Below, piece after piece: positions 1,862 through 55,026 of a DNA stretch of 64,000 nt. Numbering within the stretch: position 1 is the first letter of the stretch; every line of letters starts with the position of its first letter. This stretch comes from Naegleria gruberi (taxonomy: Eukaryota): NCBI GenBank assembly GCA_000004985.1, contig GG738849.1. One strand, written 5' to 3'. The notes beneath the pieces were generated by a model that saw only the letters and a program-made list of their open reading frames with translations, ran no database searches and was not told the DNA's origin. Made by a program: the position numbers and the translations under genes.

Positions 1862-2049
1862 AATCATTTTGTCAAATTTGTTTTTCAATATGAAAACCAC
1901 TCGATTTTTCAGCAGTTAAATAAATTCTTAATTTGAGAATATTGTATTTACAGTCTGATGATCTTAAAACCTTTTATGGCTCCATCCAAAAGAGTTCTCA
2001 ATCAGTAAGCTATTCTTTAAAAAAAATATAAAAACCTTTTTCTGTACAG

Positions 2050-18457: not shown

Positions 18458-18560
18458 ATTACACTATTTCACTTCTACAAATTAGACCAATATTGTATTT
18501 CGTAATTATGAGGTGTGCTGATTAGAATTGAAAATTCAAAACATTTTAAAGAAGAAAAAA

Positions 18561-33191: not shown

Positions 33192-35099
33192 TTAAAACAC
33201 AACATAATTCTCTTTATTCGGAGTTTGCTTCAATGTGAAATAATCTAAAAGGAATGCACCCTTCACTGCTGGAATTTTCAATTCGGAAATTGTTCTTGTC
33301 TCAGAGTCATGTGTTGCCTTAACGTCGTCGTCCAGTATTGCAAGAGTGACATTTGAATCCAGAGTTTCACTAACAATACCATCACCAGCTGTGATAACAT
33401 CCTGAAATAATTCTCTTGGAGGTCCTGATAACTCTAACAGGTGGATATACACAATCCATCCTTTGAATGGACCGTGTCCATGTTCTTCCCTGAATTGTCT
33501 CCACTTACGTCCAACTCCCATCCATATTCCCTTTGTTGTGAATTCATCTGAAAACCACTCGTAATTTTTTTCATCCAAAAACTCATTGTTCCCAACAGAG
33601 TCCTTAATATAGCTTGGTTTGAGAACCCAACTTCCTTTAGCACATGATGTCATGAATTTGTGAGTTCTCTTAATTTCACTAATGATGAGGTGAGTGTCAA
33701 CGGCAGTACTGCAGACTTTAGCACCTAAATTTTCTATTTTTTCTATGATTTCCTCTTCCTCTGATGGATGAAGTGATAATTTAAAGACTCTCTCCTTCTT
33801 TACCTTCTTTTTCTGCTGAGGAGGTTTTTCAGGAACCTTATCCTCTTGTGGTAATTTTCTCTTCTTATCTAATGATGTTGTTGCAGTTTCGAGTGTGTAT
33901 AAACCTGTATTCATCATTCTCCAATGACTAATAGAATCAAAAATGAAATCAGGAGAAAGAATGGTTAATTCCCATGTTTTAGCCTTTTCAATCTTTTTAG
34001 AAACCAAATCAAATGATTTCACAATGAGAAAATCATTTTGCTTATTTAAATCTCCTGTATAGATAGCTCCTGTTTGTTTTATGAGATAAATCATGTCTGA
34101 TCTCTCAGCTCCTTCAAATCCTGTAATGGAAATTTTCTTATTTTCAAATCCCTTGATAAAATTATTTGATTTCAAAGGTCTATAAATTATCTTTTCACTT
34201 ATTGGAATCAATCTAGATTCCCTCAATGAGTCGTCAATCCACTGAGCTGTTGTTATATTTTCTACATTTTTTAATGTATATGGTTCATTACATGCATATC
34301 TGGTAATTAAATAATCAATCTTGACATTATCTTTTAACAACCTGCTCTGTAAGACCTTTCCTCCGTTTGAGCAAATTTCCCTCTGTAAAATACTTATAAA
34401 TTCTGGAGGATAATTTACAATGTAGAATGTTAAACTTTGGAAGAGAGTTTTTGCTTGATGAATACTAATGTATTTTCCTTGATTTTTGCCCACCAAATAA
34501 TTCTTTTCATCCAAATATATTCTCTTTGAAAAGCATAATTTCAACCACTCAAAAGATACAATAATGACATGATCTGATGATGATGATGGAGCAACTGTTT
34601 CAGTATCATCCGATGTTGTGATAATGTGAGTAATTTTTTCTTCCTCTTGTTGTTCTAAAAACTTTCCTCCAAGGAAAGTAACCATGAAAGCTACACTTGC
34701 AATATTGGAAATCTTTCTCGTACAAGTAAAAACAAGATTATAAAATACAAAGGGATAGCAGAGTAGAAAATTTTCCTCATCACACAACTTATTCTCCTTG
34801 ATTGAAGTGTAGACAAATTGAGGACTTATGATGAATCGGTCTGGATTTTTAACTTGAGAACTATTCAATGTATCAATATTTTCATTTTCGGAATTGGTTT
34901 CCATCTCCACAGATATAATATGAGTAATTCCATTAGTATCTAAATCATTCGAAATTGTTCCATCATGTTTTTCTATTGATTTAATTAATTTTTCTTTTTC
35001 ATTCTTTGGTATCGAAGAGGAGAGAAAGAAACAGAGGCTAGTGAACAGTTTTGCTGTTGTTGATTTGTTTGGAGGCATTTTTTTTAAATGTTCCATCAT
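33192..35099 (-). CDS. BRCT-repeat protein (Dpb11/TopBP1-like architecture, 635 aa)
   Basis: There are several BRCT-like units, for example KKISITGFEGAERSDMIYLIKQTGAIYTGDLNKQNDFLIVKS and GWIVYIHLLELSGPPRELFQDVITAGDGIV. The exact orthology is uncertain. Confidence 0.55.
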   Translation of the reverse strand: MMEHLKKMPPNKSTTAKLFTSLCFFLSSSIPKNEKEKLIKSIEKHDGTISNDLDTNGITHIISVEMETNSENENIDTLNSSQVKNPDRFIISPQFVYTSIKENKLCDEENFLLCYPFVFYNLVFTCTRKISNIASVAFMVTFLGGKFLEQQEEEKITHIITTSDDTETVAPSSSSDHVIIVSFEWLKLCFSKRIYLDEKNYLVGKNQGKYISIHQAKTLFQSLTFYIVNYPPEFISILQREICSNGGKVLQSRLLKDNVKIDYLITRYACNEPYTLKNVENITTAQWIDDSLRESRLIPISEKIIYRPLKSNNFIKGFENKKISITGFEGAERSDMIYLIKQTGAIYTGDLNKQNDFLIVKSFDLVSKKIEKAKTWELTILSPDFIFDSISHWRMMNTGLYTLETATTSLDKKRKLPQEDKVPEKPPQQKKKVKKERVFKLSLHPSEEEEIIEKIENLGAKVCSTAVDTHLIISEIKRTHKFMTSCAKGSWVLKPSYIKDSVGNNEFLDEKNYEWFSDEFTTKGIWMGVGRKWRQFREEHGHGPFKGWIVYIHLLELSGPPRELFQDVITAGDGIVSETLDSNVTLAILDDDVKATHDSETRTISELKIPAVKGAFLLDYFTLKQTPNKENYVVF

Positions 35100-35287: not shown

Positions 35288-35947
35288 TTACTCATCATCG
35301 CTTTCTTCTTCGCTACTTTCTTCTTCTTCTGATTCCGATTCCTTCTTGGTCTTCTTCTTTGCTGGTGCCTTAGTTTCGTGAGTGGCATCATATTCTTCCT
35401 TTTGAACTTTGTAGGCAGCCTTCAATTTTTCAGCCTGAGCAATGTATGGCTTCTTTTGTTCGTCAGACATTTTCTTCCACAAAGCACCAACCTTCTTGGC
35501 AACTTCTGTTACTTTAAGGGTACTATCCTCTTCCAAGAGCTTCTTTCTCATTTCTTGAGAGAAGATCATGTATGAAGTGAGTGGTCGCTTTGGAGCATCC
35601 TTATCCTTTTTGGCCTTTTTGCTTCCTCTCTTTCTCTTCTTCTTTTCACCATCAGAGTCGGATTCTTCTTCATCTTCTGAAGATGGCTTATTCTTCTTAT
35701 ATTCTTCCATTTGAGCATTGTATCCATCCAAAGACTTCTTGTACTTGTCATTGTATGGCTTCTTTTGTTCATCACTTAATGAATTCCACATTTCTCCCAA
35801 GACTTTGCTTACTTCACTGGCACTCTTCTTTTCACCAGTCTTAGCCTTGGCAGCTTCTCTGTGTTCATCACAGAACAAGAAATAACCAGTCTTTGGTTTC
35901 TTTGGTGCGTTTGGGTCCTTCTTCTTGGTAGACTTCTTTCCTGCCAT
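35288..35947 (-). CDS. HMGB-type protein with two HMG boxes and an acidic tail
   Basis: The two HMG boxes are PKKPKTGYFLFCDEHREAAK... and PKRPLTSYMIFSQEMRKKL.... The C-terminal tail is acidic (SESEEEESSEEESDDE). I moved the start to the ATG at 35947 (MAGKKSTKKK). Confidence 0.75.
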   Translation of the reverse strand: MAGKKSTKKKDPNAPKKPKTGYFLFCDEHREAAKAKTGEKKSASEVSKVLGEMWNSLSDEQKKPYNDKYKKSLDGYNAQMEEYKKNKPSSEDEEESDSDGEKKKRKRGSKKAKKDKDAPKRPLTSYMIFSQEMRKKLLEEDSTLKVTEVAKKVGALWKKMSDEQKKPYIAQAEKLKAAYKVQKEEYDATHETKAPAKKKTKKESESEEEESSEEESDDE

Positions 35948-36728
35948 TGTGTTGTTGTTGTGTGTTGAGTGTTTTGTTTCTCCTTTGAAAAGATGCAGCG
36001 TTGAAAAGGCTGCCACCGTTGTCTTGAAGCCGCACGTTACACAAAGCAAAAATATTCTCTCTCCAACAACGGCACATCAACATTATTGAAGAGCCTCGAG
36101 CAATTGCTGCTGTTTGATTGGCGCATAAATATTTTTAGGCCTGAGTGATGTCGTAACTTGCCCTCTTTGATTGAGTTGAGCATCAGCAGCTTGCTGGTAA
36201 TTGGTTCTTTTCAGCATACACCACAAGACGGATTGGTTGCGCAGTCAAGTCGTTCCCCTTTACAACATCCTTTGCAAACAAAGGCACTTTTCGGTAACGG
36301 ATCGAATATTGTTAGCTGCTTCAACGAGAACGCTCATGACCAGCAATAGGATCCATCAGCAGGCGCCTCTTTGTACTACAACAATTCAACCAACACCAGT
36401 CTAATGATACATCAATACTACACCTACTTGTCGAAGAAATTGATCATTATTTAGACCAATATCAAGGAAGAGTGTATGAAGGTAACATGTCCAACACCTG
36501 GCCCAATTGATCGCCTCTATATTGAATAATTAAAATAATTAAATGTTAATCTTCAATATTTTTGTTTTGACAACTAATAATTCTAACCTTAATGGATTTA
36601 AAGATGTTTAATAACACATGATAATGTTAATGTAAGATAACAACACCTATTGGAGTTTGTTATTGTTATTTTTCTTAATAAGTTAGACTATAAATCATCT
36701 TTTTTGTTAGAATTATTTTCTGGTTTGG

Positions 36729-37289: not shown

Positions 37290-40172
37290 ATGGGGATTTT
37301 TAAACCTCATTCTTCATCAGGCAACACGATAATACTGATAGGAGATGAAAGTTATTGGATTCCAACAATAAGATTGTGGTTGATGCCACTTCAATTACCA
37401 CCAGCACCACTTGAAAAAATGAACAGAAAACCAACCCTAAGAAAACGGGCCAAAAACGTCTCGTACTATGAAGGAAATAATCAAGTTATTTTAGAAGAAG
37501 ACGAAGAAGAAAATGAAGACGAAGTTGAAGAGGAAGAGGAGGAAGATGAAGCTGTTGTGGAGTTTGATGAAGAGGATGATGATGAAGAGATGGAGGCCTA
37601 TGTAGATTCTACAAAAGAGGAACAGATCAACAATACTAGTAGCAATAGTAGTAATAGTAGTGAATCTGATGAGGAACAAGTTCCGAAAAGAAAACAACCA
37701 TCACGGTCAAGAAATCAACCTAAAAGCCAATCCAAAAATCAATCAAAAGTTTCCAGTACTAGAAGAGGTTCATCTTCAAAGAAGATGGAAATATCAACCA
37801 CAACAAGTGAAAGTGACAATAACTATGAACCAACTAAAAAAACTAGGCAAACTCCAAAGAAGAAAATTACAAAATCCACCACCTCTGCCTCTAGAGGTTC
37901 GTCATCTTCTAATCGTTCCAAATCACCTTCTACTCAGACATCCTCAAGAAAGAGGAGAAAGGAGTCCGAAAGTGAGGAGCTCTCTGATAATGACGAAGAA
38001 ACCTATGATAGTGATAGTTTCATTGTAGACGATGAAAATGAATCAAGTGAGGAAAATAATGATGAGGAAGATAGTGAAGGTACTACAAAGAAGAGGAAAA
38101 CAAAAAAGACTTCAAAAACTTCTAGGAAATCGAGTAGCAATACTACTTCTAATGGCTCCTCGAATAGATCTCAATCAACAAGCCGATCTAAAACTGTCAA
38201 CTCCAAGAAGAAGAAAAAGTCACCCAACACTGTTCAGAATTTATTTGAAATATTTGCGATTGAGAAGGATACGATCGCAGAACAGAATAGGCAACGATCC
38301 AAGCTCATTAATGAATCCGAAAGTGAAGAAGAGGAAGAAGCCTACTCAACCAGTGATAATGAGGCACAAAAACAACAGAATAAGAAAACCTTTGCCGACT
38401 TGGAATTGGCACCTATTGTAGAACATGATGGACTCATTAATCCATATAACAAAAATAGGTGCGAACAAATTCCTCTTCCTCAACACAAACATTTGGATGA
38501 TGAACAATACGATAATTACATGAATGAGAATAATAACGAGTAAGTAGTTCTTTTCAATATGGAAAGATATTCTAACTTGAAATTTAGTCATTCTCTCGCA
38601 GTAGGAGTGAAGCTAACTGGAATGGACGAGTATGAAAGCTTAATACAAAGAAGAGTCAGACAAAGAAAGGAAGATGAAGGAATAGAGGAAGAGGAGGATG
38701 AAGTGCCAGCCAATTTACAGGATGAAAGTTACATATCCGAGCTCATAAAAATGTCTGTCGGAAAGCAAGCAAGTTACAAAATCAAACCATTCAAAGGAGG
38801 CCACTATATTAATTGTGACTTGAGATATTTTACCTTGTCCTCACTGGGTAAATTTGATGTAATATTAATTGATCCACCTTGGAGAGTTATTCAGAGTAGA
38901 CCACAGGAGGCCATGATGTTCAGTAATACCAACTTTAAACTAAATTATAACACTCTCTCATACGAGGAAATTATGGATATTAATGTGGGATCATTGTGTG
39001 ATCAGGGGTTCTGTTTCATGTGGGTTCTCAATTCATCTCTTCAATTTGGACTCAATTTACTGAATCATTGGGGATTTTCCTATATTGACAAGATTACCTG
39101 GATCAAAAAGACAAAGAATGATCAAATATTTGCAGGTACAGGTTATTATTTCCTTCACTCAACTGAATTACTGCTAGTTGGCGTAAAGCATGGCTCAACA
39201 AAGAAAAATGGGCAAAAGTTGCAATATATTTCCAAAATTACCAACGATATTCTCTTCTCAAAAGTTGGTATCCAATCCCAAAAACCAAACGAAGTATACG
39301 AGATTATCGAAAGCATGGTACCAGGAGCTAGAAAGATTGAAATATTTGCAAGAAATCACAACATTAGAAAAGGGTGGCTGAGTATTGGTAATAGATTGGG
39401 TGAAGCATTTGATAAGGAAATGACAAGCTATTCATGTCACAAGTGTGATAAGAATTTATTCTCACCTGACTTTATGGGAACTGATAAGAATATTAAGAGG
39501 TTTAAGAGCTGTAAAAATCCAAAGGTTAATCTCTGTGAAAAATGTTCATCTAAATTTTCAGAAGATTATGGGCCATATTTTATATTTGAGAATACTTGCA
39601 CAGAACCAATTTTCCACGATTGGTATTCTTGTGATGTTTGTGAGATGTATCCTATTTGTGGAGCTAGGTTTTCATGTAAAGATTGTTCAGGAGATTTTGA
39701 TGTTTGTGAGGATTGTTTTGATAAGGTCATGACAAAAGATTCACATGAACATAGATCAGATTCATTTACTGCAATTGAATATCCAGATCCTGGCTGTGGT
39801 TATGCAGTTCATGTTGATAAGAAATGTAGCTCTTGTCTGGCTTGTCCTATAATTGGTGAAAGATTTATGTGTACGGAGTGTAAGGATGTTAACTTATGTA
39901 GAAAGTGTTTCTTCCTTCAAAAAGAGCCCAAGACACACAAATGCACTCACGAAATTTCAATGATACCCGAGCCAAGACATGCCCACCAAAAACTCAAATG
40001 TGCTGGTTGTGGAACAGTGGGACTCCAAGCACCAATCCACAAATGCAAAACATGCATGTCTTTCATCCTTTGTAATAAGTGCTATGATGTCCATGAAACA
40101 TGTTATGACTCACTCAAGTTGGACAAGTTTACAACACACAAACAATTCCACTCATTTATGAGAATGAAATAA
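37290..40172 (+). CDS. MT-A70-family N6-adenine methyltransferase with acidic/Ser-rich N-terminal region and C-terminal array of ZZ-type zinc fingers, 2 exons (about 945 aa)
   Basis: Exon 1 is 37290..38539 with donor GA|GTAAGT. A 48-nt intron with a TTCTAAC branch motif follows. Exon 2 is 38588..40172. The catalytic core reads VILIDPPWRV...CFMWV...LLLVGVKHG...EIFARNHNIRKGW. At least five Cys-rich ZZ/ZnF units follow (CDVCEMYPICGARFSCKDCSGDFDVCEDCF and others). Confidence 0.75.
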
Positions 40173-40177
40173 ATTAT

Positions 40178-42193
40178 TTAATGAAATGGATCGATATCAT
40201 AACCAACTAGACCTTTTTCTCTTAGCTTTCTCTCGTGCTCTCTTTCAACCTCTGAGTTTTGGTGTTGTTGAATTGATTGAGCGTTATCTGATTGAATATG
40301 ATCTAGCTTTTTTCTTTGCTTGGATTTCTCCTTACTATAGAATGCTTTATCCTTCTTGATTATTTGTTGTTTTCTTCTTTCTTGTTGTGTAGAGCTTAAA
40401 TGTGACGGAAGTTTAGTGAAAGGTTGGTTGCTTTGTTTCCATTCGTTATTGAGAGGAACTTCTTGTTGAGCTAGTTCATTCAATGTTTTTTGCATACTAT
40501 CATTGAATTCTTTTTTCAGATCTGTGGCAGTGTGCATAGAATCGATCTTTAGTAGTGTGCAAACCATTTCAACAGCTTGGTGAAGGCATTGAATCTTTAC
40601 TCGCATTGAATCCCAAACGCCTTTGACTTCTGGATGAATGAATCTAGCTGGAAATGAGCTAGTTTCTAGTGTTAGAATCTTTTCCTTCTTGATTTGATGC
40701 ATCCACGTTCGGAGAGTGGTACTCGTATTGAGCCCACTACTTTCACAAATCAGAAATGGTACTGAGGATTCCAATGCAAGTGAAAATTTTTCATAAATCA
40801 ATTGTTCAATAGGTGATAATTTGTTTGCTGTTTTTTTAAGGTGAGAGGAAAGCATCATTTCTAATGATCCTCCTCCAGGAGCAATTAGACAATCCTCGTA
40901 TGAATTTCTAATAATTTTCAAGGCACCCCTAATTAATCTAGAATATTGTTGATTGAGAACTCTGTTGGATGCTGAAACTATTATCGATCCGACAGTGTAT
41001 TTGTTTCCCTTAATGTGTATTATAGATTCTGGCTGTGCATGTCTTTGATCTTCCTTGATGGAAACAAACTCTGCATGTCCAATATAGTCTTCCTTGATGT
41101 AGTCGCAATCATAAATTTTTGTTGCACTCGTCATTTCACAAATTCTATCGAAAATATCTTGTCTCACGTGTCTGAGGGCAATAGTATTGTGCCTTGAGAA
41201 TTGGTTCAAGCTGGAATCATCTATGGCATTATTGGAAATTACAAAAGAGGGAGAGAATTTCAGTATCTTTTTTAACTTGTAATCTATTATTTCTCTCTCC
41301 TTTCTGAGAAGCTCTAGTCTCTCTTGTGCAGATTTGAATTCATTCTTCTTCTTTTCTTTCAACATTTCTAGTGGAATGTCACTTATTGCAATTACCTTAC
41401 AATCTTTCAGATATCGAGGCATGAACTGATTCTGCAATCCATGTTCAAATACAAGACCATCAATATATTCTACTCTAGAGCTTAGGGATACTTGTGAAAT
41501 GATATTGACATTGTGGAAATTCGGCAGTAATTGGATATTTTTCATTTGTTTAATAGAAAGACCATCGTATAAATCAAAGGACGCCTTCAGACAAATATTT
41601 ACAAGTTGAGAAATGATTTTTTCATCATTCAGTTTGGTTCTAAAGAAGGTTCTTACCAAATCATCTGATTTACGCTTGTCAATATGAATCTTTACATTCA
41701 AAATATCCTTATTACTCTTGATCGATGATAGGTCAAGGCTATTCCCATTCTCATCGACAAGAATATTGAGGGCAAACTTTTTCATTTCATCCACACATTT
41801 CTTACATATTTGAGTAAATGTTTCACAAACCAAATTGGTTTCAATAGTGTCATTATTAATCAAATCTTGTGCAACCTTCAATAATTCATTAAGAAGGCAC
41901 ACAACATTTATCGTTCCATCACCACATCCCATTTGAATTTGTTTAACCAATTTTACAATCATCAACCCGACTGGATGTTTAACATTTAAATTTTGAATAA
42001 TAAATCCACCCTCATTGCTTAAATATTGTTGAGTATTATTATCCCTTCCAATAATTGTTATTATTTTACCACTTGATTTAGGACCAAAACAATCAATCAC
42101 ATGATCATTAATTTGTCTAACAATATTCTCAACAATTCTACCAAATGATTGTTCCTTACCATGAGGAAGGCTTGCTATCTGTTGATGATTCAT
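40178..42193 (-). CDS. Divergent group-II chaperonin-like protein (BBS10/BBS12/MKKS-like), about 672 aa
   Basis: The protein has CCT-like equatorial motifs (GPKSSGKII, MGCGDGTINVVCLLNELLKVAQDL and a GGG-type segment, APGGGSLE) in a diverged sequence of BBS10 size. I set the start at the ATG at 42193 (MNHQQIASL). The ciliary context is supported by SPAG6 in the same window. Confidence 0.45.
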   Translation of the reverse strand: MNHQQIASLPHGKEQSFGRIVENIVRQINDHVIDCFGPKSSGKIITIIGRDNNTQQYLSNEGGFIIQNLNVKHPVGLMIVKLVKQIQMGCGDGTINVVCLLNELLKVAQDLINNDTIETNLVCETFTQICKKCVDEMKKFALNILVDENGNSLDLSSIKSNKDILNVKIHIDKRKSDDLVRTFFRTKLNDEKIISQLVNICLKASFDLYDGLSIKQMKNIQLLPNFHNVNIISQVSLSSRVEYIDGLVFEHGLQNQFMPRYLKDCKVIAISDIPLEMLKEKKKNEFKSAQERLELLRKEREIIDYKLKKILKFSPSFVISNNAIDDSSLNQFSRHNTIALRHVRQDIFDRICEMTSATKIYDCDYIKEDYIGHAEFVSIKEDQRHAQPESIIHIKGNKYTVGSIIVSASNRVLNQQYSRLIRGALKIIRNSYEDCLIAPGGGSLEMMLSSHLKKTANKLSPIEQLIYEKFSLALESSVPFLICESSGLNTSTTLRTWMHQIKKEKILTLETSSFPARFIHPEVKGVWDSMRVKIQCLHQAVEMVCTLLKIDSMHTATDLKKEFNDSMQKTLNELAQQEVPLNNEWKQSNQPFTKLPSHLSSTQQERRKQQIIKKDKAFYSKEKSKQRKKLDHIQSDNAQSIQQHQNSEVEREHERKLREKGLVGYDIDPFH

Positions 42194-42473
42194 GATGATG
42201 ATGATTTCATTCTCGCCTCCGATGTATATTCGTAAAATTTGTAATTGCTGTTGATGAGCAAAATTGAGGTTACGGATTGTTGAAGGTGTAGAGTTTCGGT
42301 TTTTTATTAATAATTTAAAAATCAAAAAAAATTCATTATTTAATAACATCATTTGTTATTCTAGAGAGGTTGATCACCACACCATACACTACGGAAGAGA
42401 TTTTCGATTAATACTTAAAATATATTCGGAGAGTCTACTTGTATTACTTGATCATTGTGTATGAAAAATAATT

Positions 42474-45400
42474 ATGGATCGTTTATTGGAACTTCAGTTG
42501 GTTTCTAAAGTTTGTAAAGAACTTGAAACCCACATTGGATCAGGCGAGAAGGCTCTTGCTGAATTTGTTATTCATCTTGCTCGGGAGGAATCAAAGACTG
42601 CAGAGGATTTTTATAATAAATTAATTGATAATGAAGCTGAATTACCGAGGGATTTTGTGGAGACTTTATTTGCCATGATACACAGAATGTCATCCAAGAC
42701 ATCTGGAAAGTTTACAAGTGCAGGAAAATACTCTACAACGTCATTGACAAAATCGGAGGAAAAAATTGAGAATGATAAGGAGGTCGTAACATCATCTTCG
42801 ACACAGATTAATGATCGATTGCATTCATTGGATAAAAGTATAAAGGAAGAAATGGAAGAAAAGATTAGGAAAAAGATAGATTCAAAGAAGAAATTTCCAG
42901 GATTATGCCTTCCTGATAAATTACCTGATCAATTAGAATCATCTAAGAGCCAACCATCGTTGTCATCATCAAAAAGCGATTCAAGATCTATTCCATCTCA
43001 AGACGATAGAAATAGAAAAAGAAGAGAATATACAGACAAAATCGAGGCTAATCAAATTTATAGAGCCAGAGTTTCAGGGTTGAAAAATTATGGATTCTTT
43101 GCGAGATTAGAGGAAACCATAGATGGTGTAATTGTAAAGGGAAATAAGGATGGCATGTGTCACATTAGCGAAATTAGTAATGAAAAGAAAGTATCAAAGG
43201 TAGATGACTTTGTTGCAAAGAATGATATGGTTTGGGTTAAGGTTATCGTAGCAACTGATTCAAGAGTTTCTCTCTCAATGAAGGAAGTTGACCAAAATAC
43301 AGGAAAAGATCTCTTTCCTCGTAGAGCACTTGCAAGAGCTGGTTCCTCTGAGGATGATGAATTTTACAAATCAACCAACCACTCTGGAATATCTTCCTCC
43401 ATTTTAGATTCTAGAAGTGATTCCAGAAGGCCAACCAAAAAGATGAATCCGTATGAAATGTGGGAACAAAAACAAATTGCAGCATCTGGATTTGGATATT
43501 CTGGTCCAATGATAGATCCTGATGATGGACCTCAAAGTTATGAAGAAGTTGAAGAGGATGTTGAAATTGAGAGAAGTGAAAAGGAACCTAAATTCTTGGA
43601 GAATCAAACTTCAAAAGGTGGAATGACCTATTCACCTGTTCGTTTGACTCAAGTTAGAGATGGTACCCTCACCAGAATAGCAGAAAAACAACTCGAATAT
43701 TCGCAAGACAGAAGAGACTTGAAGGAAGAGCAGAGAGCAAAACTCCAAGGAGAAATTCAAGATTTTGAAGCTGATGATCCTCTCTTTGAATATTATAGAC
43801 GTGTTAATGAATCAACAGATTTCAGTAATAAGGGAATGGGATCAGGTGCTCCAGATTGGAAAAAATCAACCATTACTGGTGTAGCTCAAAAAAGTTCTGC
43901 AGCCACCATTAAACAACAGAGAGAATCCTTGCCAGTCTATTCTCTCAGATCAGAGCTTGCTGCTTCAATTAGTAATAATCAAATTCTTATCGTCATTGGT
44001 GAAACAGGAAGTGGTAAAACAACACAAATTACTCAATATATTGCAGAGGAGGGAATCAATGGAGGTAAAATTATTGCATGTACTCAACCTCGTAGAGTGG
44101 CTGCCATTTCAGTTGCTAGACGTGTTGCTGAGGAATTTGGATGTCGAGTTGGACAAGAAGTTGGTTACACTATTCGTTTTGAAGATTGTACATCACCTGA
44201 TACTGCCATCAAATACATGACTGATGGTATGCTTTTGAGAGAAGCACTGTTGGATCCACTATTGGAAAAATATTCTGTTATCATGTTGGACGAAGCTCAC
44301 GAGCGTAACCTTCACACAGATGTCTTGTTTGGCCTATTGAAAAAGTTAACACAAAAGAGAAAGGATTTGAAACTAATTGTAACATCTGCCACTTTGGATG
44401 CAGAAAAATTCTCCACTTACTTCTTCACATGTCCAATCTTTACAATTCCTGGTAGAACTTTCCCTGTCGAAATTTTATATACAAAGGAGCCAGAGGAGGA
44501 TTATCTTGATGCAACCCTTATTACTGTCATGCAAATTCACTTGACTGAACCAGCTGGTGATATTCTGGTCTTTTTAACCGGTCAGGAAGAAATTGATACT
44601 GCTTGTCAAATTCTCTATGAACGTATGAAAGCATTGGGAAGTGATGTTCCAGAACTTGTCATTTTACCAATTTATGCTGCCCTACCATCAGAAATGCAAT
44701 CCAAAATCTTTGACCCTGCACCACCTGGTGGCAGAAAGGTTGTTATTGCTACAAATATTGCTGAAACTTCCATTACCATTGATGGTATTTTGTATGTGGT
44801 AGATCCTGGTTTTGTAAAACAAAATATTTACAATTCCAAAACTGGTATGGATCAATTGACAGTTGTCCCAATCTCTCAGGCAGCCGCTCGTCAAAGAGCT
44901 GGTAGAGCTGGTCGTACTGGACCAGGTAAATGCTATCGTTTATATACTGAAGAAGCATACAAAAATGAAATGTTGCCAAATACTGTTCCTGAAATTCAAA
45001 GAACCAACTTGGCAAATACTGTATTGACTTTGAAGGCTATGGGTATTAATGACTTGTTGAACTTTGATTTTATGGATCCACCACCACCTCAAGCACTTAT
45101 TGCTGCTATGGAGCAATTGTACAGTCTAGGAGCTCTTGACGATGATGGTCTATTAACTAAAATGGGAAGAAAGATGGCAGAATTTCCTCTCGAACCACAA
45201 ATGGCAAAAACCCTTATTGCCTCTGTAGATTTGAAATGTTCTGATGAGGTTTTAACAATTGTTTCCATGATTTCAGTACAAGGAATTTTCTATAGACCAA
45301 AAGAGAAGCAACAACAAGCTGATCAGAAAAAGTCAAGATTTTTCCAACCTGAAGGAGATCACTTGACACTTCTTGCAGTTTATCAATCATGGGAAAGAAG

Positions 45401-45893
45401 TAATTTTTCTGTTCCTTGGTGTTTTGAAAACTTTATCCAATCCAGATCAATGAAAAGAGCTCAGGATATTCGAAAACAATTATTAACAATTATGGACAGA
45501 TATAAATTGCCAGTCATTACATGTGGAAAGAACTTTACCAAGATTAGAAAGGCTATTGCCAGTGGATTTTTTGCCCATGCAGCCAAGAAAGATCCACAAG
45601 AAGGATACAAGACACTTGTTGAAAACCAACCTGTATATGTGCATCCAGGAAGTGCTCTATTCCACAAGAATCCTGAATGGGTTGTTTACCATACCTTACT
45701 ATTGACAACTAAGGAGTATATGCGTGATATTATTACCATTGAACCAAAGTGGTTGGTTGAATTGGCTCCAAACTTTTACCGAGTTCACGATGATGCTTAC
45801 CTTTCTAAGAGAAAGAGACAAGAAAAAATTGAACCACTTTATAACAAGTACGGCGATGATCCTCTCCAATTACTAAAGCGAACAAAGAGATAA
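42474..45893 (+). CDS. DHX8: Pre-mRNA-splicing factor ATP-dependent RNA helicase DHX8/Prp22 (1139 aa, single exon)
   Basis: The protein has an S1 domain (GFFARLEE...VWVKV) and a DEAH-box core: [34 protein letters not shown] and [10 protein letters not shown]2 and OB-fold domains follow. Confidence 0.95.
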
Positions 45894-48761: not shown

Positions 48762-50698
48762 ATGAATCACAAGAGACTTTTGAAGGAAATTGAAACTAAA
48801 AAGAAGATTACCGATGTTAAATTCTTCAAGGATGATGATAAAAACGAGAAGGAGAAGAAAGTCTTTTCAAGTAGTAACATGAACATTGCCTCCAAGAATT
48901 ATGGTGTGCTTGTTTATGATTTGGAAGGTAAAAAATCACTTTCGGAAATTATTCAAAACTCCAAGTTGAAGGCAAAATATAACATGGATGCCAAGAATTA
49001 CTTTAACTTGATTGATGACTTGGAATTCCCAACTGCTTGTAATAATATTTGTTTAGCAGCTGATGAAAACCATTTGTGGACATCAGGTATCTACAAGCCA
49101 CAACTCCGTTGTTTTACTCTTGATGATTTGTCAATGAAATTCAAGAGACACGTAGATCTTGAAATTATTAAAATTTGTCCACTCACTTCAGATTTTAGAA
49201 AATTGGCAACTCTTTGTCAAGATAGATATATTGAAATTCATGCTCAATGGGGTAGTTACTATAGATTCAGAATTCCAAAATATGGTAGAGATTTAGTTTA
49301 TCATGACCATAGTGCAGAATTGGTTATGGTTGGCTCATCTAATGAAATTTATAGATTCAATCTTGAACAAGGCATGTTTAGAAAACCAACATTAAGTTAT
49401 ACAAATACAGAAGCTATCAATACTGTAAGAATTAACCCAGTTCACCAACTTTTTGGACTTGGGTGTGATAATGGATTTGTGGAATGTATGGATCCAAGAT
49501 CAAAGAGAATTATTGGATGTATTGATGCTTGTGGATCAATTAACACTATGCTACCATCAGAAGTATCTTCATCTTCAATAACAGCTTTCGAATTTGATAA
49601 TGATGGTATTGGATTTGCAGTTGGTACAAATGCTGGTAAAGTTGGATTATTCGATTTGAGAAAACAAGGTGCTGTCTATATTAAGGACCATAACACTGAT
49701 TTACCACTTGTTAAAATTGCTTATCATGATTCATCAAAGAATATCTTCTCTGCAGATACTCAACTTGTCAAGATTTGGGATAAATCAAATGGCAATAACT
49801 ATACAAACTTGGAATTATCGGCAAAGATTAATGATTTCTGTATAATTCCAAACAGTGGTATGATTCTTGTTGGTGGTGAAAGATCAAAGATAAAACCATA
49901 CTATATTCCAAGTTTGGGACCTGCTCCAAAGTGGTGCTCATTTGTGGATCAAATCACAGAAGAACTCGAAGATTTCAAGAAGAATACTGTTTACCAAGAC
50001 TTTAAATTCCTTACAATGGAAGAAATTCAAGAGTATGTATTTTATGAATTTTTCAATTACTTAATAATTATAGTCTTGGATTGGAAGATTTATTCGGAAC
50101 AGATCTTTTACGACCATACATGCACGGTTTCTTCATCAAGATGTCCCTCTATAGAAAGGCTCTCGAATTTAACAATCAAAAGCCAACTGAACCACAAATT
50201 GATCTTGAAAAGATTGAAAAGGAATCTGAAGACAGACTCAAGGAAGAACGTATTAAGAATCTTGTTGATTTCATTACATCTGAAGAAGGTGGTGAGGAAG
50301 TTCCAAAGAAAAAGAAGAAGGGTGCTATTTCTTCTGTCAATGACGAAAGATTTACAGAAATGCTCAATGATCCAGACTTTAAAGTGGATACTAAAGAAAA
50401 ACAAAAGAAGTTGGATGAAAGAAAGTTAAAGAGAAAGGAAAAGGTTGAAAACACTAGGCATAAGGATGATGAGTATGATGATATTGGAATTTATGGTATT
50501 GAGTCAACTCAATCACTCAATTATGACAATAGCAATATTTTAGATTTTGGTGCAAAGAGTAAGGAAGAAAGAGGAATGACATTTGAAAAGCGATTAGGAC
50601 GAAAGAATGATAAACACAACAGTGAAGATCCAGCCTCAAAGAAAAGAAAGAGAGTTAGAGGTGAAAACAAGAAAGCCAAACATGTAAAAAAGTATTAA
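48762..50698 (+). CDS. NOL10: Nucleolar protein 10 (NOL10/Enp2) with NUC153 domain, 2 exons (about 631 aa)
   Basis: Exon 1 is 48762..50032 with donor GA|GTATGT, then a 41-nt intron, then exon 2 at 50074..50698. WD-repeat N-terminal region. The NUC153 segment reads LGLEDLFGTDLLRPYMHGFFI. The tail is basic (K/E-rich). Confidence 0.8.
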
Positions 50699-51329: not shown

Positions 51330-53315
51330 ATGATGAATCGCACTACCAGTAGTGGAACTATTAATATTCCAATGATGATGATGAACAATAATACCGCTAA
51401 TAGTAGTATGAATAGTTTGGTGGAGAACACCTTCCACTCACCTCCAACAATGATGATGATGGGTGGTCTACCAACAACAGCAAATACCACAACTCCTTCT
51501 TCGCTGAGTAGTAATAATAGTGGTGGTAGTCTGAACAATTCAGTTCCAATACCCATTCCTTCTTCTTCTTCAACTCTTACCTTTAAACGAAAAACCTCTA
51601 ACGCCAAGTACAAGCCTGCCAATCTGAGTATTTCCTCTGTTCGAGATAGTAAGGCTTCAAAGCCTACAAAACAATTCGAAATACCACAAGAATTCTACAT
51701 GTACAATCATGCCTCCTCCGTTCCAAATCAAGGCTACATTTCGTCAGTTGATGAAAGTAATACTATGGCATCCCCTTCTCCTCACTCCTCTTCTCTCATC
51801 ACAAGCGCCCACTATCATAATAGAAGTAGTAGCCTTCAACCACAACAACCATCAAGTAGTATCAATAACTTGTTCCAAAAATCCACTCACCATCACCACC
51901 ATGGAATGGGTCAACGTCAACATACTCCATTTTCCCCGCCTTCAACTTCATCTGCCATGATGATTAATAGAAGTAGCGTATCATCAGTATCTTCTTCCTT
52001 TTCCAATTCCTCATATAATCCAATTGCCCATTCTCACTCATCAGCTGCCCATCATCACAGTAGCTCATTTGTACAAAATTCCCTTGGCCATCAATATAGT
52101 TCTGGCTATTTTAATCCTCACAGTTATGACAATAATTCCATGTGTTATTCTCTGAGCAGTAGTGTGGAGTCTAATTGTTCCTATGCTAGTCATTGTATCA
52201 GTCCTAATACCGGTTCTTTATTGTTATACGATAAATTGAATAGAAAATTCCGTAAAATTAGAGCACTTGGAGAAGGATCATCAAGTACTGTTTCTCTAGT
52301 TCAACAAGAATCCACTGGTCTCTATTTTGCAGAGAAAGTAATTGAACATTATGAAGAAAGAGAGGCCATTGTTAAGAACGAGGTCAAGTATCTTTCAATA
52401 TGCAAACCTTGTTCAAATGTAGTGACATTATTCGATTGTTTCCAAAAAGGAGATTCTATTCATCTCATTCTTGAATATATGGAAGGCAACTCTTTGGATA
52501 TTATTGCTAAACAATATAGCAAACTTTCCAAGACACAGAGGAAATCCTTAGAAGAGGAAACAGAAACTAATTCATCCCATCTTTCACCAATGGCCTTTGA
52601 TGAAGATTCAGAATTAATGACTTATGATGATGACTTGGATGATTTGAATACAGATGAGGAAATGTTCCCAATGGATACGAAATCATCAGCAAAGCCAGAA
52701 AAAAAGAAGAGTACCAGAAGAAAGCTGTTCGACGATGACGAAGAATCAGATAGTGCCAAAAATCAAAGAGATAATAAGGGTCTACCTGAGGAAATGCTTG
52801 CCTTGATGGTTGTGCAAATCACCAGAGCGTTATGCTTTTTAATGGATCACAATATTATTCACTCTGATATCAAACCAAGCAATATTCTTCTTAACAGAAG
52901 AGGAGAAGTCAAATTGACTGACTTTGGTTTGTCTACTTGTACAGAGGTTTCTCAAAATAGACTTGGCTCATTTGCTTATATGAGTCCAGAAAAGTTGCAA
53001 CACGGTAAACATAGCCACAAATCAGACATTTATTCATTGGGAGTCTCAATTTTGGAATTATCCAAATTCAAATTCCCCTTCTCTGAGAGTGGATTCCACA
53101 TGAATGAAATTCAGCATCTAGATGTAGAAAAATTTGTTGGAAATACTCACTCTCATGAATTTAAAGATTTCATTAGACAATGCATACAAATAGAACCAAA
53201 TGTAAGATTATGTGCTCATGAATTATTACAACATGACTGGTTGAGAAATTATGCAAACATGGACAATGACTTGATATGTTCAAAAATATCTAAATGGTAT
53301 AATAAATTGTCTTAG
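51330..53315 (+). CDS. Ser/Thr protein kinase, MAP2K/STE7-like, with low-complexity N-terminus and kinase insert (661 aa)
   Basis: The glycine loop is LGEGSSSTV and the catalytic loop is HSDIKPSNILLN. The protein also has VKLTDFGLS and an SPE motif. An acidic insert of about 100 aa sits between subdomains V and VI. Confidence 0.75.
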   Translation: MMNRTTSSGTINIPMMMMNNNTANSSMNSLVENTFHSPPTMMMMGGLPTTANTTTPSSLSSNNSGGSLNNSVPIPIPSSSSTLTFKRKTSNAKYKPANLSISSVRDSKASKPTKQFEIPQEFYMYNHASSVPNQGYISSVDESNTMASPSPHSSSLITSAHYHNRSSSLQPQQPSSSINNLFQKSTHHHHHGMGQRQHTPFSPPSTSSAMMINRSSVSSVSSSFSNSSYNPIAHSHSSAAHHHSSSFVQNSLGHQYSSGYFNPHSYDNNSMCYSLSSSVESNCSYASHCISPNTGSLLLYDKLNRKFRKIRALGEGSSSTVSLVQQESTGLYFAEKVIEHYEEREAIVKNEVKYLSICKPCSNVVTLFDCFQKGDSIHLILEYMEGNSLDIIAKQYSKLSKTQRKSLEEETETNSSHLSPMAFDEDSELMTYDDDLDDLNTDEEMFPMDTKSSAKPEKKKSTRRKLFDDDEESDSAKNQRDNKGLPEEMLALMVVQITRALCFLMDHNIIHSDIKPSNILLNRRGEVKLTDFGLSTCTEVSQNRLGSFAYMSPEKLQHGKHSHKSDIYSLGVSILELSKFKFPFSESGFHMNEIQHLDVEKFVGNTHSHEFKDFIRQCIQIEPNVRLCAHELLQHDWLRNYANMDNDLICSKISKWYNKLS

Positions 53316-53406: not shown

Positions 53407-55026
53407 TTACTCATCACTTGACCTTATCCATTTGACTAGCTTTTTCTCTTGAGCTGAATAGTACTTGATAAGTTTGATTCGTTTGCAGTGTTTGATAATT
53501 TGATTCTCTAATTGTACTGTATTTAATGGAACTCGAATATCAAAAACATCCAATTCTTCCAGTGTATTGTTTTTAACAGTCATGTTTCCATCAAAACAAC
53601 CATTGGAAAGATTCAATCTTTTCAAATATTTGAAATTCTCAATATCCTTCGCTAATAATTTACAAAGAGATGGTTCTATTAGGGAACGATTACCACTCAA
53701 ATCTAAAATTCTAAGGTTAGGGAAAATGAAATTCCATGAGCAGTGCAACAGTTCATTATCAGCTAAACTCAACTCTCGCAGTGAGGCATAGCATGGTGAT
53801 GAAGATTGACCAGATTTGTGCATTTGAATGAACATTGCTCTCAATTGAAAGTACAATTCTCTCACACTCTCTTGAGATAATTGGCAATCAATTAGCTTAA
53901 ATGACTTTAGGTGATTATTAAACCTAAAAAAAGGAATTACAACAAAATTAATATAATAGTTAGCTTGGTTAGAACAATTTGAAAATGTTACAGATTCCAA
54001 GTATGGAATGTAGAAAAAGTTTCTGACATTGTAAAATTGAATGGAAAATCTCTTTCTTGATGATTCATCAACCAGCTCGTCCTGCTCTTCATTTTCCAAT
54101 ATTTTCTTTCGGACTTGAATGGCAATTTGTGATGAACCTAAGGATTTTGACCTTCTTCTTATCGATTGTTCTGATGATATATTATTGAGCGATGAAGATC
54201 GACTCAAACTCGAATTAATGGTATGTACACAATTTCGCAAGTGTCTCGGTAAATTGGAGTGAATTGAAATGAGATTAGTTCTCTTCTCGAAGGATTCTAA
54301 CATTATTTCACTATCATTCTTATTTGCAAGAAATTTTTCAAATGAATGTGGACTAGAGGTTAGTAAATTGAGAAAGTCGTCGTCATTTGACATTTTCGAT
54401 CTTCTCATAGATGACCTTGGTGATTGTAAGGTCATTTCAGAATCATTTTTAGCAAATGAATCAAATCTATAAAAGGAATTATATAAATTTAACATTTGGT
54501 CAAATCCAATAAATTTTAAATGAGAATAAAAATCGAATAAAAATACACGTTGGTTTCTTTCCTTTTCGAATACTCCAAATAATTTAGATATTAAATTATT
54601 AATATTAAAGGGTATAGTCTTCGTAAGGGAATTTGAATTTGTTCGTTTGTGAATTGATTTTCTCATATTCCTGTCGAGTTGTCCATTTTCAATATCTCCA
54701 TTAAAATTATCAACTCGAAAATCATGTTGCTGCTGTGAATTATCCTTAGCCATAACATCATATAACAACATTTTTTCATACAAGTCACTATAATGAGCCG
54801 TTTCTATCAACTTTTTCGAATAGAATATAATTTCTGGAAATTTAATAAATGAAAGAATGGTCAATATTATATCAAATGGAAGCTTTCTAAAATCATCAAA
54901 ATCAATATCATATTCACTATATAATTTGTTATATATTGTTATCATATGATGAGTCGGAGCAATAAATTGACCATGTTCAAAGTAATAGATGTGCTGCATT
55001 TTTTTTAGAGTTGGATTTTGGCGCAT
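53407..55026 (-). CDS. F-box / LRR protein (539 aa)
   Basis: The start is an ATG. The N-terminal F-box-like segment is LPFDIILTILSFIKF. C-terminal leucine-rich repeats include LRELSLADNELL and LRILDLSGN. Confidence 0.5.
   Translation of the reverse strand: MRQNPTLKKMQHIYYFEHGQFIAPTHHMITIYNKLYSEYDIDFDDFRKLPFDIILTILSFIKFPEIIFYSKKLIETAHYSDLYEKMLLYDVMAKDNSQQQHDFRVDNFNGDIENGQLDRNMRKSIHKRTNSNSLTKTIPFNINNLISKLFGVFEKERNQRVFLFDFYSHLKFIGFDQMLNLYNSFYRFDSFAKNDSEMTLQSPRSSMRRSKMSNDDDFLNLLTSSPHSFEKFLANKNDSEIMLESFEKRTNLISIHSNLPRHLRNCVHTINSSLSRSSSLNNISSEQSIRRRSKSLGSSQIAIQVRKKILENEEQDELVDESSRKRFSIQFYNVRNFFYIPYLESVTFSNCSNQANYYINFVVIPFFRFNNHLKSFKLIDCQLSQESVRELYFQLRAMFIQMHKSGQSSSPCYASLRELSLADNELLHCSWNFIFPNLRILDLSGNRSLIEPSLCKLLAKDIENFKYLKRLNLSNGCFDGNMTVKNNTLEELDVFDIRVPLNTVQLENQIIKHCKRIKLIKYYSAQEKKLVKWIRSSDE

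What the first reader, a model, noticed from the sequence alone, without database searches (positions are those of the whole stretch)
37290..40172. MT-A70 (DPPW) methyltransferase fused to an array of ZZ-type zinc fingers and a long acidic/Ser-rich N-terminal region
The catalytic core carries DPPW, as in METTL3/METTL4/ciliate-type 6mA enzymes, rather than the EPPL of the non-catalytic METTL14. It is followed in the same exon by at least five ZZ/Cys-rich fingers. I am not aware of an established MT-A70 family member with this C-terminal ZZ array. The N-terminal 400 aa are poly-acidic and Ser-rich, like a histone or chromatin binder. This could be a chromatin-targeted N6-adenine (DNA 6mA or RNA m6A) methyltransferase of unusual architecture.
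Basis: partly seen in the sequence, partly recalled or inferred. Interest (0 to 1): 0.55.

Follow-up and report, generated by a model that had tools for sequence, protein, structure and literature searches.

The report
Naegleria AMT2-type adenine methyltransferase with ZZ fingers
This is the Naegleria gruberi copy of an already described family of adenine methyltransferases (the AMT2/5 group) whose hallmark is a tail of ZZ zinc fingers, so the gene is real but its design is not new.

Summary
The window is Naegleria gruberi NEG-M. The region holds one two-exon gene of 901 aa: 37419-38539 and 38588-40172, split by a 48-nt in-frame intron.

It encodes three parts:
- a disordered N-terminal region rich in acidic residues, Ser and Lys;
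- an MT-A70 methyltransferase core with an intact DPPW motif and SAM-binding motifs (Pfam 2.8e-36);
- a conserved Cys/His tail.

The tail is not five or more ZZ fingers. It is one C4 mini-finger plus three ZZ domains. Two ZZ domains pass Pfam's threshold. The third scores below it but keeps all its zinc ligands.

This architecture is already published. Iyer et al. 2016 describe an MT-A70 subclade with multiple C-terminal ZZ domains. Wang et al. 2019 and Romero Charria et al. 2025 name it AMT2/5. Cheng et al. 2025 show that Tetrahymena AMT2/AMT5 are needed for de novo DNA 6mA, and they mention an N. gruberi AMT2 homologue.

My tree puts the gene in the ZZ-bearing clade (86% bootstrap), apart from AMT1 and METTL3.

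The one modest addition is that the first ZZ domain keeps the acidic pocket HERC2 uses to bind the histone H3 N-terminus. That suggests histone-tail-guided targeting, which is inferred and untested.

Verdict: already known, low interest.

The parts
37419..38539 (+). Exon 1: N-terminal low-complexity region, aa 1-373 plus two bases of codon 374. It has acidic blocks, Ser/Thr-rich and Lys/Arg-rich stretches, and NLS-like runs RKRRK, KKRK and KKKKK.
   Evidence: ORF and translation. No Pfam match. Composition and basic runs. The start at 37419 is supported by the shared N-terminal motif with the N. lovaniensis and N. fowleri orthologues. A GAA-rich tandem repeat at 37493-37546 encodes the poly-Glu/Asp stretch.
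37437..37472 (+). Conserved N-terminal island LRKRAKNVSYYE. It is one of three short islands kept in Naegleria and partly in Willaertia. The others are VQNLFEIFAIE at 38232-38264 and PYNKNRCEQIPLPQ at 38442-38483.
   Evidence: Four-species alignment; coordinates. Function unknown.
38540..38587 (+). 48-nt intron (GTAAGT...TAG). It contains the in-frame TAA at 38541-38543.
   Evidence: Sequence. The length is a multiple of 3, and the spliced product aligns across the junction with orthologues. The N. lovaniensis orthologue's gene span (3223 nt for 1037 aa) also requires intron sequence. No transcript evidence is available here.
38588..40172 (+). Exon 2: linker, MT-A70 core, C4 finger, three ZZ domains and the stop codon.
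38802..39401 (+). MT-A70 methyltransferase core, aa 446-645. Motifs present: NCDLRY (38811-38828), DPPW (38871-38882), EIFARNHN (39339-39362) and GNRLG (39387-39401). A clade-specific loop of about 14-16 extra residues follows DPPW (...QSRPQEAMMFSNTNFKLNY).
   Evidence: Pfam PF05063 at 2.8e-36. PDB matches to Tetrahymena MTA1 (4e-39) and METTL3 (2e-36). Foldseek top hits are MTA1 and METTL3, with TM about 0.7-0.79 on the target. Motif alignment. The loop is low-confidence in the AF2 model (residues 100-121).
39435..39545 (+). Degenerate C4 zinc finger, CHKC...(x27)...CEKC, aa 657-693. The four Cys plus an R-[YF]-K motif are invariant in the family. It is not a ZZ domain.
   Evidence: No ZZ hit; only weak partial matches. 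Invariant C283, C286, R304, K306, C316 and C319 in alignment A1.
39630..39752 (+). ZZ domain 1, aa 722-762. It has the acidic pocket pattern C-D-x-C ... D-F-D-x-C.
   Evidence: Pfam ZZ at 31.2 bits. The best PDB matches are the HERC2 ZZ-H3 fusion 6ww4 (1.8e-10), PRT1 ZZ with N-degrons, and ZZZ3 ZZ. The pocket residues are conserved in about 29-31 of 31 family members. Their role in HERC2 is described in PMC9001736.
39825..39950 (+). ZZ domain 2, aa 787-828. It carries the family signature PIIG.RF.C..C....LC.KCFF and has no acidic triad.
   Evidence: Pfam ZZ at 34.3 bits; ligand pattern and family conservation.
39999..40151 (+). ZZ domain 3, aa 845-895. It is divergent: all zinc ligands are kept, but the acidic pocket is lost in Naegleria and Willaertia.
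   Evidence: Pfam ZZ at 13.8 bits, below the threshold. Full C/H ligand pattern by regex; many other members have D...N-[FY]-D here.

Best explanation
This is the Naegleria gruberi member of the AMT2/5 subclade of eukaryotic MT-A70 methyltransferases. It is very probably the annotated protein XP_002681700.

Most likely mechanism, by homology with Tetrahymena AMT2: it is a nuclear, SAM-dependent DNA N6-adenine methyltransferase that methylates previously unmethylated ApT sites (de novo 6mA). The AMT1 maintenance enzyme, also encoded by N. gruberi, then completes and copies those sites.

Proposed roles of the parts:
- The MT-A70 core, with DPPW and the SAM motifs intact, does the chemistry.
- The conserved tail (C4 finger plus three ZZ domains) most likely targets the enzyme to chromatin by protein binding. 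I infer that ZZ1 reads a free protein N-terminus such as the histone H3 tail.
- The N-terminal disordered region probably supplies nuclear localisation signals and non-specific chromatin contacts.

Shown here: gene structure, domain content, motif integrity, clade placement and conservation of the ZZ1 pocket.

Inferred: DNA as the substrate, de novo activity, H3-tail reading, and the need for a partner or a homodimer.
For: Organism: four neighbouring ORFs are exact matches to N. gruberi proteins XP_002681693, XP_002681694, XP_002681703 and XP_002681858 on an 850-kb scaffold.

Domains: MT-A70 at 2.8e-36 and ZZ at 5.5e-12.

Catalytic motifs: D of NCDLRY, DPPW and E/R/H/N of EIFARNHN are conserved against METTL3-type and MTA1 sequences.

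Clade placement, from an NJ tree of the MT-A70 core:
- The gene falls inside a 35-sequence ZZ-bearing clade with 86% bootstrap.
- That clade includes the ciliate Climacostomum, Galdieria, several Amoebozoa and Diphylleia.
- It is separate from AMT1 (100%) and METTL3 (100%).

Tail: it is rigidly conserved across the family, with 11 CxxC motifs.

Literature:
- The ZZ tail is the stated hallmark of AMT2/5.
- N. gruberi is scored AMT1=1 and AMT2/5=1, with the tree taxa XP_002672452 and XP_002681700. The accession order on this scaffold fits the latter.
- An AMT2 homologue in N. gruberi is mentioned.
- In Tetrahymena, AMT2/AMT5 knockout abolishes de novo 6mA, and a DPPW-to-APPA mutant does not rescue it.
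- N. gruberi has real 6mA at ApT on about 644 genes.
- All 10 AMT2/5-positive species in the published table also have AMT1.

ZZ1 pocket: it aligns with HERC2 D2709/D2728/D2730, which bind the H3 N-terminus.
Against: - No biochemical activity has been shown for any AMT2/5 protein. Tetrahymena AMT2, alone or with AMT5, was inactive in vitro and in vivo assays, so cofactors are needed.
- Naegleria has no AMT5-like inactive paralogue, so its dimer partner is unknown.
- I could not obtain the Tetrahymena AMT2 sequence. Co-clustering with AMT2 itself rests on the published table and text, plus a ciliate (Climacostomum) member in my tree.
- NJ support for AMT2/5 being closer to METTL3 than to AMT1 is weak (57%). 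The clade is about equally distant from a DNA enzyme and an RNA enzyme.
- The position equivalent to METTL3 Q550 is Arg in the Naegleria/Willaertia group (GNRLG versus GNQLG).
- ZZ1 binding to H3 is inferred from three pocket residues only.
- The AF2 model is mediocre (pLDDT 68, pTM 0.50) and says nothing reliable about domain packing.
Confidence: 0.8

Rival explanations
1. It is an RNA m6A writer. In lineages that lack METTL3/METTL14, such as Naegleria, the ZZ-bearing MT-A70 enzyme would methylate mRNA or another RNA rather than DNA.
For: - The published subset tree places AMT2/5 as sister to the METTL3 clade (file 9), and so does my NJ tree (only 57% support).
- N. gruberi is scored METTL3=0 and METTL14=0.
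- 8 of the 10 AMT2/5-positive species in the table lack METTL3/14.
- Source databases label relatives 'N6-adenosine-specific RNA methylase IME4' or 'METTL3'. These are automatic names.
- No in vitro DNA activity has been shown for AMT2.
Against: - There is no CCCH or other RNA-binding domain.
- ZZ domains are protein-binding modules.
- Loss of Tetrahymena AMT2/5 removes de novo DNA 6mA, and rescue needs the DPPW motif.
- AMT2/5 co-occurs with AMT1 in 10 of 10 species.
- Many AMT1-only species also lack METTL3, so the absence of METTL3 is not informative.
Confidence: 0.1
2. It is a non-enzymatic or accessory subunit. It would act as a chromatin-tethering partner of the AMT1 complex, as AMT5, AMT7 or METTL14 do, rather than as a catalyst.
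For: - MT-A70 enzymes work as dimers of a catalytic and a non-catalytic subunit.
- N. gruberi is scored AMT6/7=0 in the NCBI proteome, so AMT1 might need another partner.
- Wang et al. suggested the ZZ fingers might interact with AMT1.
Against: - DPPW and the SAM-contacting residues are intact and invariant across the family. Known dead partners have eroded motifs: EPPL in METTL14 and APPF in AMT5.
- No AMT1-AMT2/5 interaction was detected in Tetrahymena.
- The re-annotated N. gruberi proteome contributes three MT-A70 entries to the published tree, so an AMT6/7-type partner may exist.
Confidence: 0.07
3. It is a gene-model artefact. The N-terminal ORF (37290-38543) and the MT-A70/ZZ ORF (38559-40172) would be two separate genes rather than one fused protein.
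For: - An in-frame stop separates the two ORFs.
- Metagenome gene callers report only the 537-aa ORF (cluster 1).
- The spliced 901-aa sequence is not in the protein collection.
Against: - A canonical 48-nt in-frame intron spans the stop.
- The N. lovaniensis (1037 aa), N. fowleri (1030 aa) and Willaertia (681 aa) proteins carry the same N-terminal start motif and conserved islands, continuous with the MT-A70 core.
- The conserved segment VKL.G.DEY.SLI..K starts right after the acceptor site, upstream of the first ATG of the second ORF.
Confidence: 0.03

Closest known systems
Tetrahymena thermophila AMT2 (also called TAMT-1) and AMT5; the AMT2/5 subclade of MT-A70 (Wang 2019; Cheng 2025; Romero Charria 2025)
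   Same: An MT-A70 core followed by several C-terminal ZZ fingers. DPPW and the F-x-R SAM motif are intact, as in AMT2. It is found in a species that also has AMT1 and genomic 6mApT. N. gruberi is already listed as having one AMT2/5 gene and an 'AMT2 homologue'.
   Different: Naegleria has a single DPPW copy and no AMT5-like paralogue with an eroded motif (APPF). It has no germline-to-soma nuclear differentiation, which is where de novo 6mA is needed in ciliates. It carries a long N-terminal region rich in acidic residues, Ser and Lys that is specific to Naegleria. ZZ3 has lost its acidic pocket.
Tetrahymena MTA1/AMT1 (PDB 7f4r, 7yi8, 9u9e), the maintenance DNA 6mA methyltransferase
   Same: It is the best sequence match among solved structures (137.7 bits), has the same fold and has the DPPW catalytic motif.
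   Different: It belongs to a separate clade (100% bootstrap). AMT1 has no ZZ tail, has a shorter loop after DPPW, and works with MTA9/AMT7 and the p1/p2 DNA-binding subunits.
METTL3 (human; yeast Ime4), the mRNA m6A writer
   Same: MT-A70 fold with DPPW. It scores about the same as MTA1 (128.6 bits). It is the sister or near-sister clade.
   Different: METTL3 has N-terminal CCCH RNA-binding fingers and pairs with METTL14. It has no ZZ domains and has the shortest gate loop 1. Naegleria is reported to lack METTL3/14.
ZZ domains that read a protein N-terminus: HERC2, p62/SQSTM1, p300, ZZZ3, PRT1
   Same: ZZ1 is most similar to the HERC2 ZZ (1.8e-10). It keeps the three acidic pocket positions, equivalent to D2709, D2728 and D2730, which bind the alpha-amino group of H3 Ala1 or of N-terminal Arg.
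   Different: The protein context differs: a methyltransferase rather than an E3 ligase, acetyltransferase or autophagy receptor. The ligand is unknown. Naegleria has one extra residue between the second Cys pair and the D-F-D motif.

Membership tests
MT-A70 superfamily (Pfam PF05063) | A profile match above the curated threshold and the MT-A70 Rossmann-like fold | tested here: met
   125.5 bits against a 23.9-bit cut-off, E 2.8e-36. Foldseek top hits are MTA1 and METTL3, E about 1e-19, target TM 0.7-0.79.
Catalytically competent MT-A70 (METTL3/AMT1/AMT2 type, not METTL14/AMT5/AMT7 type) | An intact [DNSH]PP[YFW] motif and SAM-binding residues (D of CD[LI]R, E/R/H/N of ELF.R.HN, the F-x-R motif) | tested here: met
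   DPPW at aa 469-472. NCDLRY, EIFARNHN and GNRLG are present and invariant or nearly invariant in the family. METTL14 scores only about 65 bits, against 128-138 for METTL3 and MTA1. Enzymatic activity itself cannot be tested here.
AMT2/5 subclade | Several C-terminal ZZ-type zinc fingers after the MT-A70 domain | tested here: met
   Three ZZ units with full ligand sets, two above Pfam's threshold, plus a C4 finger. The same tail is found in 30 or more relatives. Hallmark as stated in PMC4738411, PMC7145601 and PMC12695648.
AMT2/5 subclade | Phylogenetic grouping with Tetrahymena AMT2/AMT5, apart from AMT1, AMT6/7, METTL3, METTL14 and METTL4 | tested here: inconclusive
   The NJ tree separates it from AMT1 and METTL3 and puts it in a ZZ-bearing clade (86%) that contains a ciliate (Climacostomum) sequence. 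I could not retrieve the Tetrahymena AMT2 and AMT5 sequences. The published tree file is truncated in the held copy. The published table scores N. gruberi AMT2/5=1, and Cheng et al. cite an N. gruberi AMT2 homologue.
AMT2/5 subclade | Co-occurrence with AMT1 and with genomic 6mA at ApT | not tested
   Nothing in this window bears on it. From the literature, N. gruberi has AMT1=1 and 6mApT on about 644 genes.
AMT2/5 subclade | Required for de novo DNA 6mA | not testable with these tools
   Shown only for Tetrahymena AMT2/AMT5, by knockout and rescue.
METTL3 (mRNA m6A writer) | N-terminal CCCH zinc fingers and a METTL14 partner | tested here: not met
   No CCCH domain in either exon. METTL3-type sequences form their own clade at 100%. 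N. gruberi is reported as METTL14=0.
N-terminus-reading ZZ domains (HERC2/p62/p300/ZZZ3 type) | An acidic pocket formed by [D/N] after the first Cys and D-x-D before the third Cys pair | tested here: met
   ZZ1 reads CDVC...DFDVC and aligns residue for residue with HERC2 CDGC...DFDFC. The pattern is conserved in the family. Actual peptide binding cannot be tested here.

The most novel reading that the evidence does not exclude
In Naegleria the single DPPW-bearing AMT2-type enzyme works without an AMT5-like inactive partner, for example as a homodimer. Its first ZZ domain guides it to chromatin by reading the free N-terminus of histone H3. This would explain why only about 3% of genes carry 6mA, and it would give the 'ZZ domains of unknown function' of the AMT2/5 clade a concrete role as histone-tail readers coupling nucleosomes to de novo adenine methylation.
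Probability: 0.25. Interest if true: 0.5.

Novelty: already known. Interest (0 to 1): 0.15.

Why it matters
It matters little as a discovery. The MT-A70 plus ZZ architecture has been in the literature since at least 2015-2016, it was named AMT2/5 in 2019, and N. gruberi is explicitly listed as carrying one such gene.

Three things remain useful:
1. A corrected gene model: start at 37419, a 48-nt intron, 901 aa.
2. An exact description of the tail as a C4 finger plus three ZZ domains with a fixed ligand count across distant eukaryotes.
3. The observation that ZZ1 keeps the HERC2-type pocket for a free protein N-terminus throughout the family.

The third point gives a simple testable hypothesis for domains that recent papers still call 'of unknown function'. 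Because Naegleria has a single catalytic copy and sparse 6mA, it could be a simpler system than ciliates for asking how de novo adenine methylation is targeted.

Tried and rejected
- I tried to obtain Tetrahymena AMT2/AMT5 for a direct phylogeny.
  - Two word-indexed homology searches, one with the protein and one with a 20-sequence profile, returned no ciliate NCBI entries.
  - The exhaustive HMMER search gives no names.
  - Naming ten of its top hits added only Cyanidiococcus and Platysulcus.
  - The published Nexus tree is truncated in the held copy.
  - Cheng et al. have no supplementary text held.
- I looked up the exact 901-aa spliced model in the protein collection and it is absent. The identification with XP_002681700 therefore rests on accession order and the published taxon list. 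A text search for that accession found nothing.
- I considered a 62-nt intron ending at the CAG at 38601 and rejected it, because it breaks the frame.
- I considered that the N-terminal region might be a defined histone-binding domain. It has no Pfam match and only three short conserved islands within Heterolobosea.
- The AF2 model (pLDDT 68, pTM 0.50) is too uncertain to say how the ZZ array packs on the catalytic core.
- I left the third homology search and the second structure job unused, because no outstanding question justified the cost.
Full report
**What is in the sequence.** The window is AT-rich (about 34% GC) and eukaryotic. Four neighbouring ORFs are exact matches to Naegleria gruberi NEG-M proteins: XP_002681693, XP_002681694, XP_002681703 and XP_002681858. 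All four lie on one 850,158-bp scaffold.

In the flagged span, two long + strand ORFs share a frame: 37290-38543 and 38559-40172. A single TAA separates them. The sequence shows a canonical short intron, GTAAGT at 38540 and TAG ending at 38587. It is 48 nt long, so the frame is kept. An alternative acceptor at 38601 would give 62 nt and break the frame.

The spliced protein aligns without a break across the junction with the N. lovaniensis (P0057, 1037 aa), N. fowleri (P0058, 1030 aa) and Willaertia magna (P0002, 681 aa) proteins. Those orthologues begin M-x-K-x-[ST]-LRKR-x-K-x-[IV]-SY-x-E. This matches the second in-frame ATG at 37419 rather than 37290.

The gene model I adopt is therefore 37419-38539 plus 38588-40172, giving 901 aa. 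The N. lovaniensis gene spans 3223 nt for 1037 aa, so it also contains intron sequence. Its downstream neighbours are the same as here, a CCT-type chaperonin and a DEAH helicase, so the loci are orthologous.

**Domain content.** Exon 1 has no Pfam match. It is a low-complexity region with 22% Asp+Glu, 24% Ser+Thr and 16% Lys+Arg, and it has three NLS-like basic runs. Only three short islands are conserved within Heterolobosea.

Exon 2 carries an MT-A70 domain (PF05063, 125.5 bits, E 2.8e-36) and ZZ domains (PF00569, E 5.5e-12). Among solved structures the scores are:

| Structure | Bits |
|---|---|
| Tetrahymena MTA1/AMT1 | 137.7 |
| Human METTL3 | 128.6 |
| METTL14 | about 65 |
| MTA9 | about 26 |
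| METTL4 | about 25 |

An AlphaFold2 model built on a 20-sequence alignment has mean pLDDT 68. Its Foldseek top hits are MTA1 and METTL3 catalytic domains. DPPW and the SAM-contacting positions (D of NCDLRY; E, R, H and N of EIFARNHN) are intact and invariant or nearly so in the family. The protein is therefore of the catalytic type, not the METTL14/AMT5/AMT7 type.

**The zinc-finger tail.** I scanned the four Cys-rich units one at a time:

| Unit | Result |
|---|---|
| First Cys unit | No ZZ match; a C4 finger. Its four Cys and an R-[YF]-K motif are invariant in the family. |
| ZZ1 | 31.2 bits; passes Pfam's gathering score of 21.4 |
| ZZ2 | 34.3 bits; passes |
| ZZ3 | 13.8 bits; below threshold, but keeps the complete C-x2-C / C-x2-C / C-x2-C / H-x-H ligand set |

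Full-length relatives from very distant eukaryotes have a tail of about 250-300 residues with a fixed 11 CxxC motifs, which equals one C4 finger plus three ZZ domains.

**Relatives.** Homology searches found the same MT-A70 plus ZZ architecture in these groups:
- Naegleria and Willaertia (Heterolobosea)
- Galdieria and Cyanidiococcus (red algae)
- Protostelium, Soliformovum and Stenamoeba (Amoebozoa)
- Diphylleia (CRuMs)
- Platysulcus (stramenopile)
- the ciliate Climacostomum
- many unnamed metagenomic sequences

An exhaustive HMMER search of 1.84 billion representatives found 18,257 MT-A70 proteins. Only about 45-50 of the listed top hits align through the ZZ tail. The family is small and patchy but spans eukaryotic supergroups.

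I built a neighbour-joining tree on 199 trimmed columns of the catalytic core. Results:
- The window protein falls inside a ZZ-bearing clade of 35 sequences (86% bootstrap).
- The Heterolobosea group has 100% support.
- AMT1-type sequences, including the MTA1 PDB sequence, form a separate clade (100%), as do METTL3-type sequences (100%).
- Whether the ZZ clade is closer to METTL3 (57%) or to AMT1 (25%) is unresolved.

A clade signature is a loop about 14-16 residues longer than METTL3's directly after DPPW, containing MFSN.

**What is already published.**
- Wang et al. [quoted passage not shown]
- Romero Charria et al. [quoted passage not shown] They score N. gruberi as AMT1=1, AMT6/7=0, AMT2/5=1 and METTL3/14/4=0. 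Their tree includes Ngru_XP_002672452 and Ngru_XP_002681700. They also show 6mA at ApT on about 644 N. gruberi genes (PMC12695648).
- Cheng et al. [quoted passage not shown] They note 'homologs of AMT2 in ... Naegleria gruberi' (PMC12077518).

The accession XP_002681700 (EFC48956) fits the order of + strand genes on this scaffold. EFC48950 is at 17090 and EFC48959 at 51330. Counting back through the + strand genes at 48762 and 42474 lands on this gene. That mapping is my inference: the exact 901-aa model is not in the protein collection.

**Mechanism.** By homology, the most likely function is a nuclear SAM-dependent DNA N6-adenine methyltransferase that establishes 6mA at ApT sites, which the AMT1 complex then completes and maintains. 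In the published table, all ten AMT2/5-positive species also have AMT1. Substrate and de novo activity are inferred from Tetrahymena, not shown for Naegleria.

Naegleria has only one DPPW copy and no AMT5-like inactive paralogue. Its dimerisation partner is therefore unknown; it could be itself or another protein.

**A small addition on the ZZ tail.** ZZ1 is most similar to ZZ domains solved with bound protein N-termini: the HERC2-H3 fusion 6ww4 (E 1.8e-10), PRT1 with N-degrons, and ZZZ3. The alignment places the window's CDVC...DFDVC on HERC2's CDGC...DFDFC, that is on D2709, D2728 and D2730. Those residues form the acidic pocket that binds the H3 N-terminus and N-terminal Arg. D2709A or D2730A abolishes binding, and so does acetylating the alpha-amine (PMC9001736).

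Across 31 family members with three recognisable ZZ units:
- The position after the first Cys of ZZ1 is D or N in 31 of 31.
- The [D/E]-x-D pattern is present in about 29 of 31.
- ZZ2 has no such pattern.
- ZZ3 has it in many members but has lost it in Naegleria and Willaertia.

This supports ZZ1 as a reader of a free protein N-terminus, with the histone H3 tail as the obvious candidate. It is a hypothesis only.

**Rivals.**
- An RNA m6A role is conceivable. The clade is near METTL3 and Naegleria lacks METTL3/14. Against it are the absence of any RNA-binding domain, the Tetrahymena genetics, and the strict co-occurrence with AMT1.
- A purely structural role is unlikely, given the intact and invariant catalytic motifs.
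- A two-gene artefact is unlikely, given the in-frame canonical intron and the orthologue alignments.

**Verdict.** The interpretation as a chromatin-directed adenine methyltransferase is reasonable and matches the literature. The claimed novelty of the architecture is not supported, because this is the known AMT2/5 subclade and the N. gruberi member has already been counted in published surveys. Interest is low.

Noticed in passing
window 35291-36049 (-): A 253-aa protein with two HMG boxes and an acidic Ser/Glu-rich tail (HMGB-like; Pfam HMG_box 7e-38). It is transcribed divergently from the methyltransferase gene across a gap of about 1.37 kb. In N. lovaniensis the upstream neighbours differ, so the pairing is probably coincidental.
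   Followed up: partly
window 33195-35099 (-): A 635-aa protein made of multiple BRCT domains (BRCT_2 7e-50, BRCT 6e-40, PTCB-BRCT). It resembles a TopBP1/Rad4/Dpb11-type DNA-damage scaffold.
   Followed up: no
window 40181-42352 (-) and 42474-45890 (+): A TCP-1/cpn60-family chaperonin-like protein (724 aa, 5e-77) and a DEAH-box helicase with an S1 domain (1139 aa, DHX8/Prp22-like architecture). Both are syntenic with the N. lovaniensis locus.
   Followed up: partly
window 55453-62820 (+): A very long uninterrupted ORF of 2455 aa with no Pfam match at E<=1e-4. The ORFs at 18528-20735 (735 aa) and 53407-55026 (539 aa, - strand) also have no Pfam match.
   Followed up: no
window 17090-18457 (+), 51330-53315 (+), 48762-50429 (+): Annotated N. 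gruberi genes: tRNA (guanine(10)-N2)-methyltransferase (XP_002681694) and a MAP kinase kinase (XP_002681703), both exact matches. A NOL10-like beta-propeller protein is also present.
   Followed up: partly
window 1789-1862 (+): A single tRNA-Glu (TTC) gene, the only tRNA in the 64-kb window.
   Followed up: no
P0079 (1719 aa) and P0086 (1283 aa), from the representative search: Two long proteins match the ZZ part of the profile in seven separate stretches and carry 53 and 30 CxxC motifs. They have no DPPW motif. They appear to be large ZZ-repeat arrays without a methyltransferase, from unknown organisms.
   Followed up: no
P0064 cluster (601 aa, 64 members, metagenome contigs): A very Asn/Lys/Ile-rich MT-A70 plus ZZ protein, abundant in ENA, JGI and Logan metagenome assemblies. 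It comes from an unidentified AT-rich eukaryote that seems common in sequenced environments.
   Followed up: no
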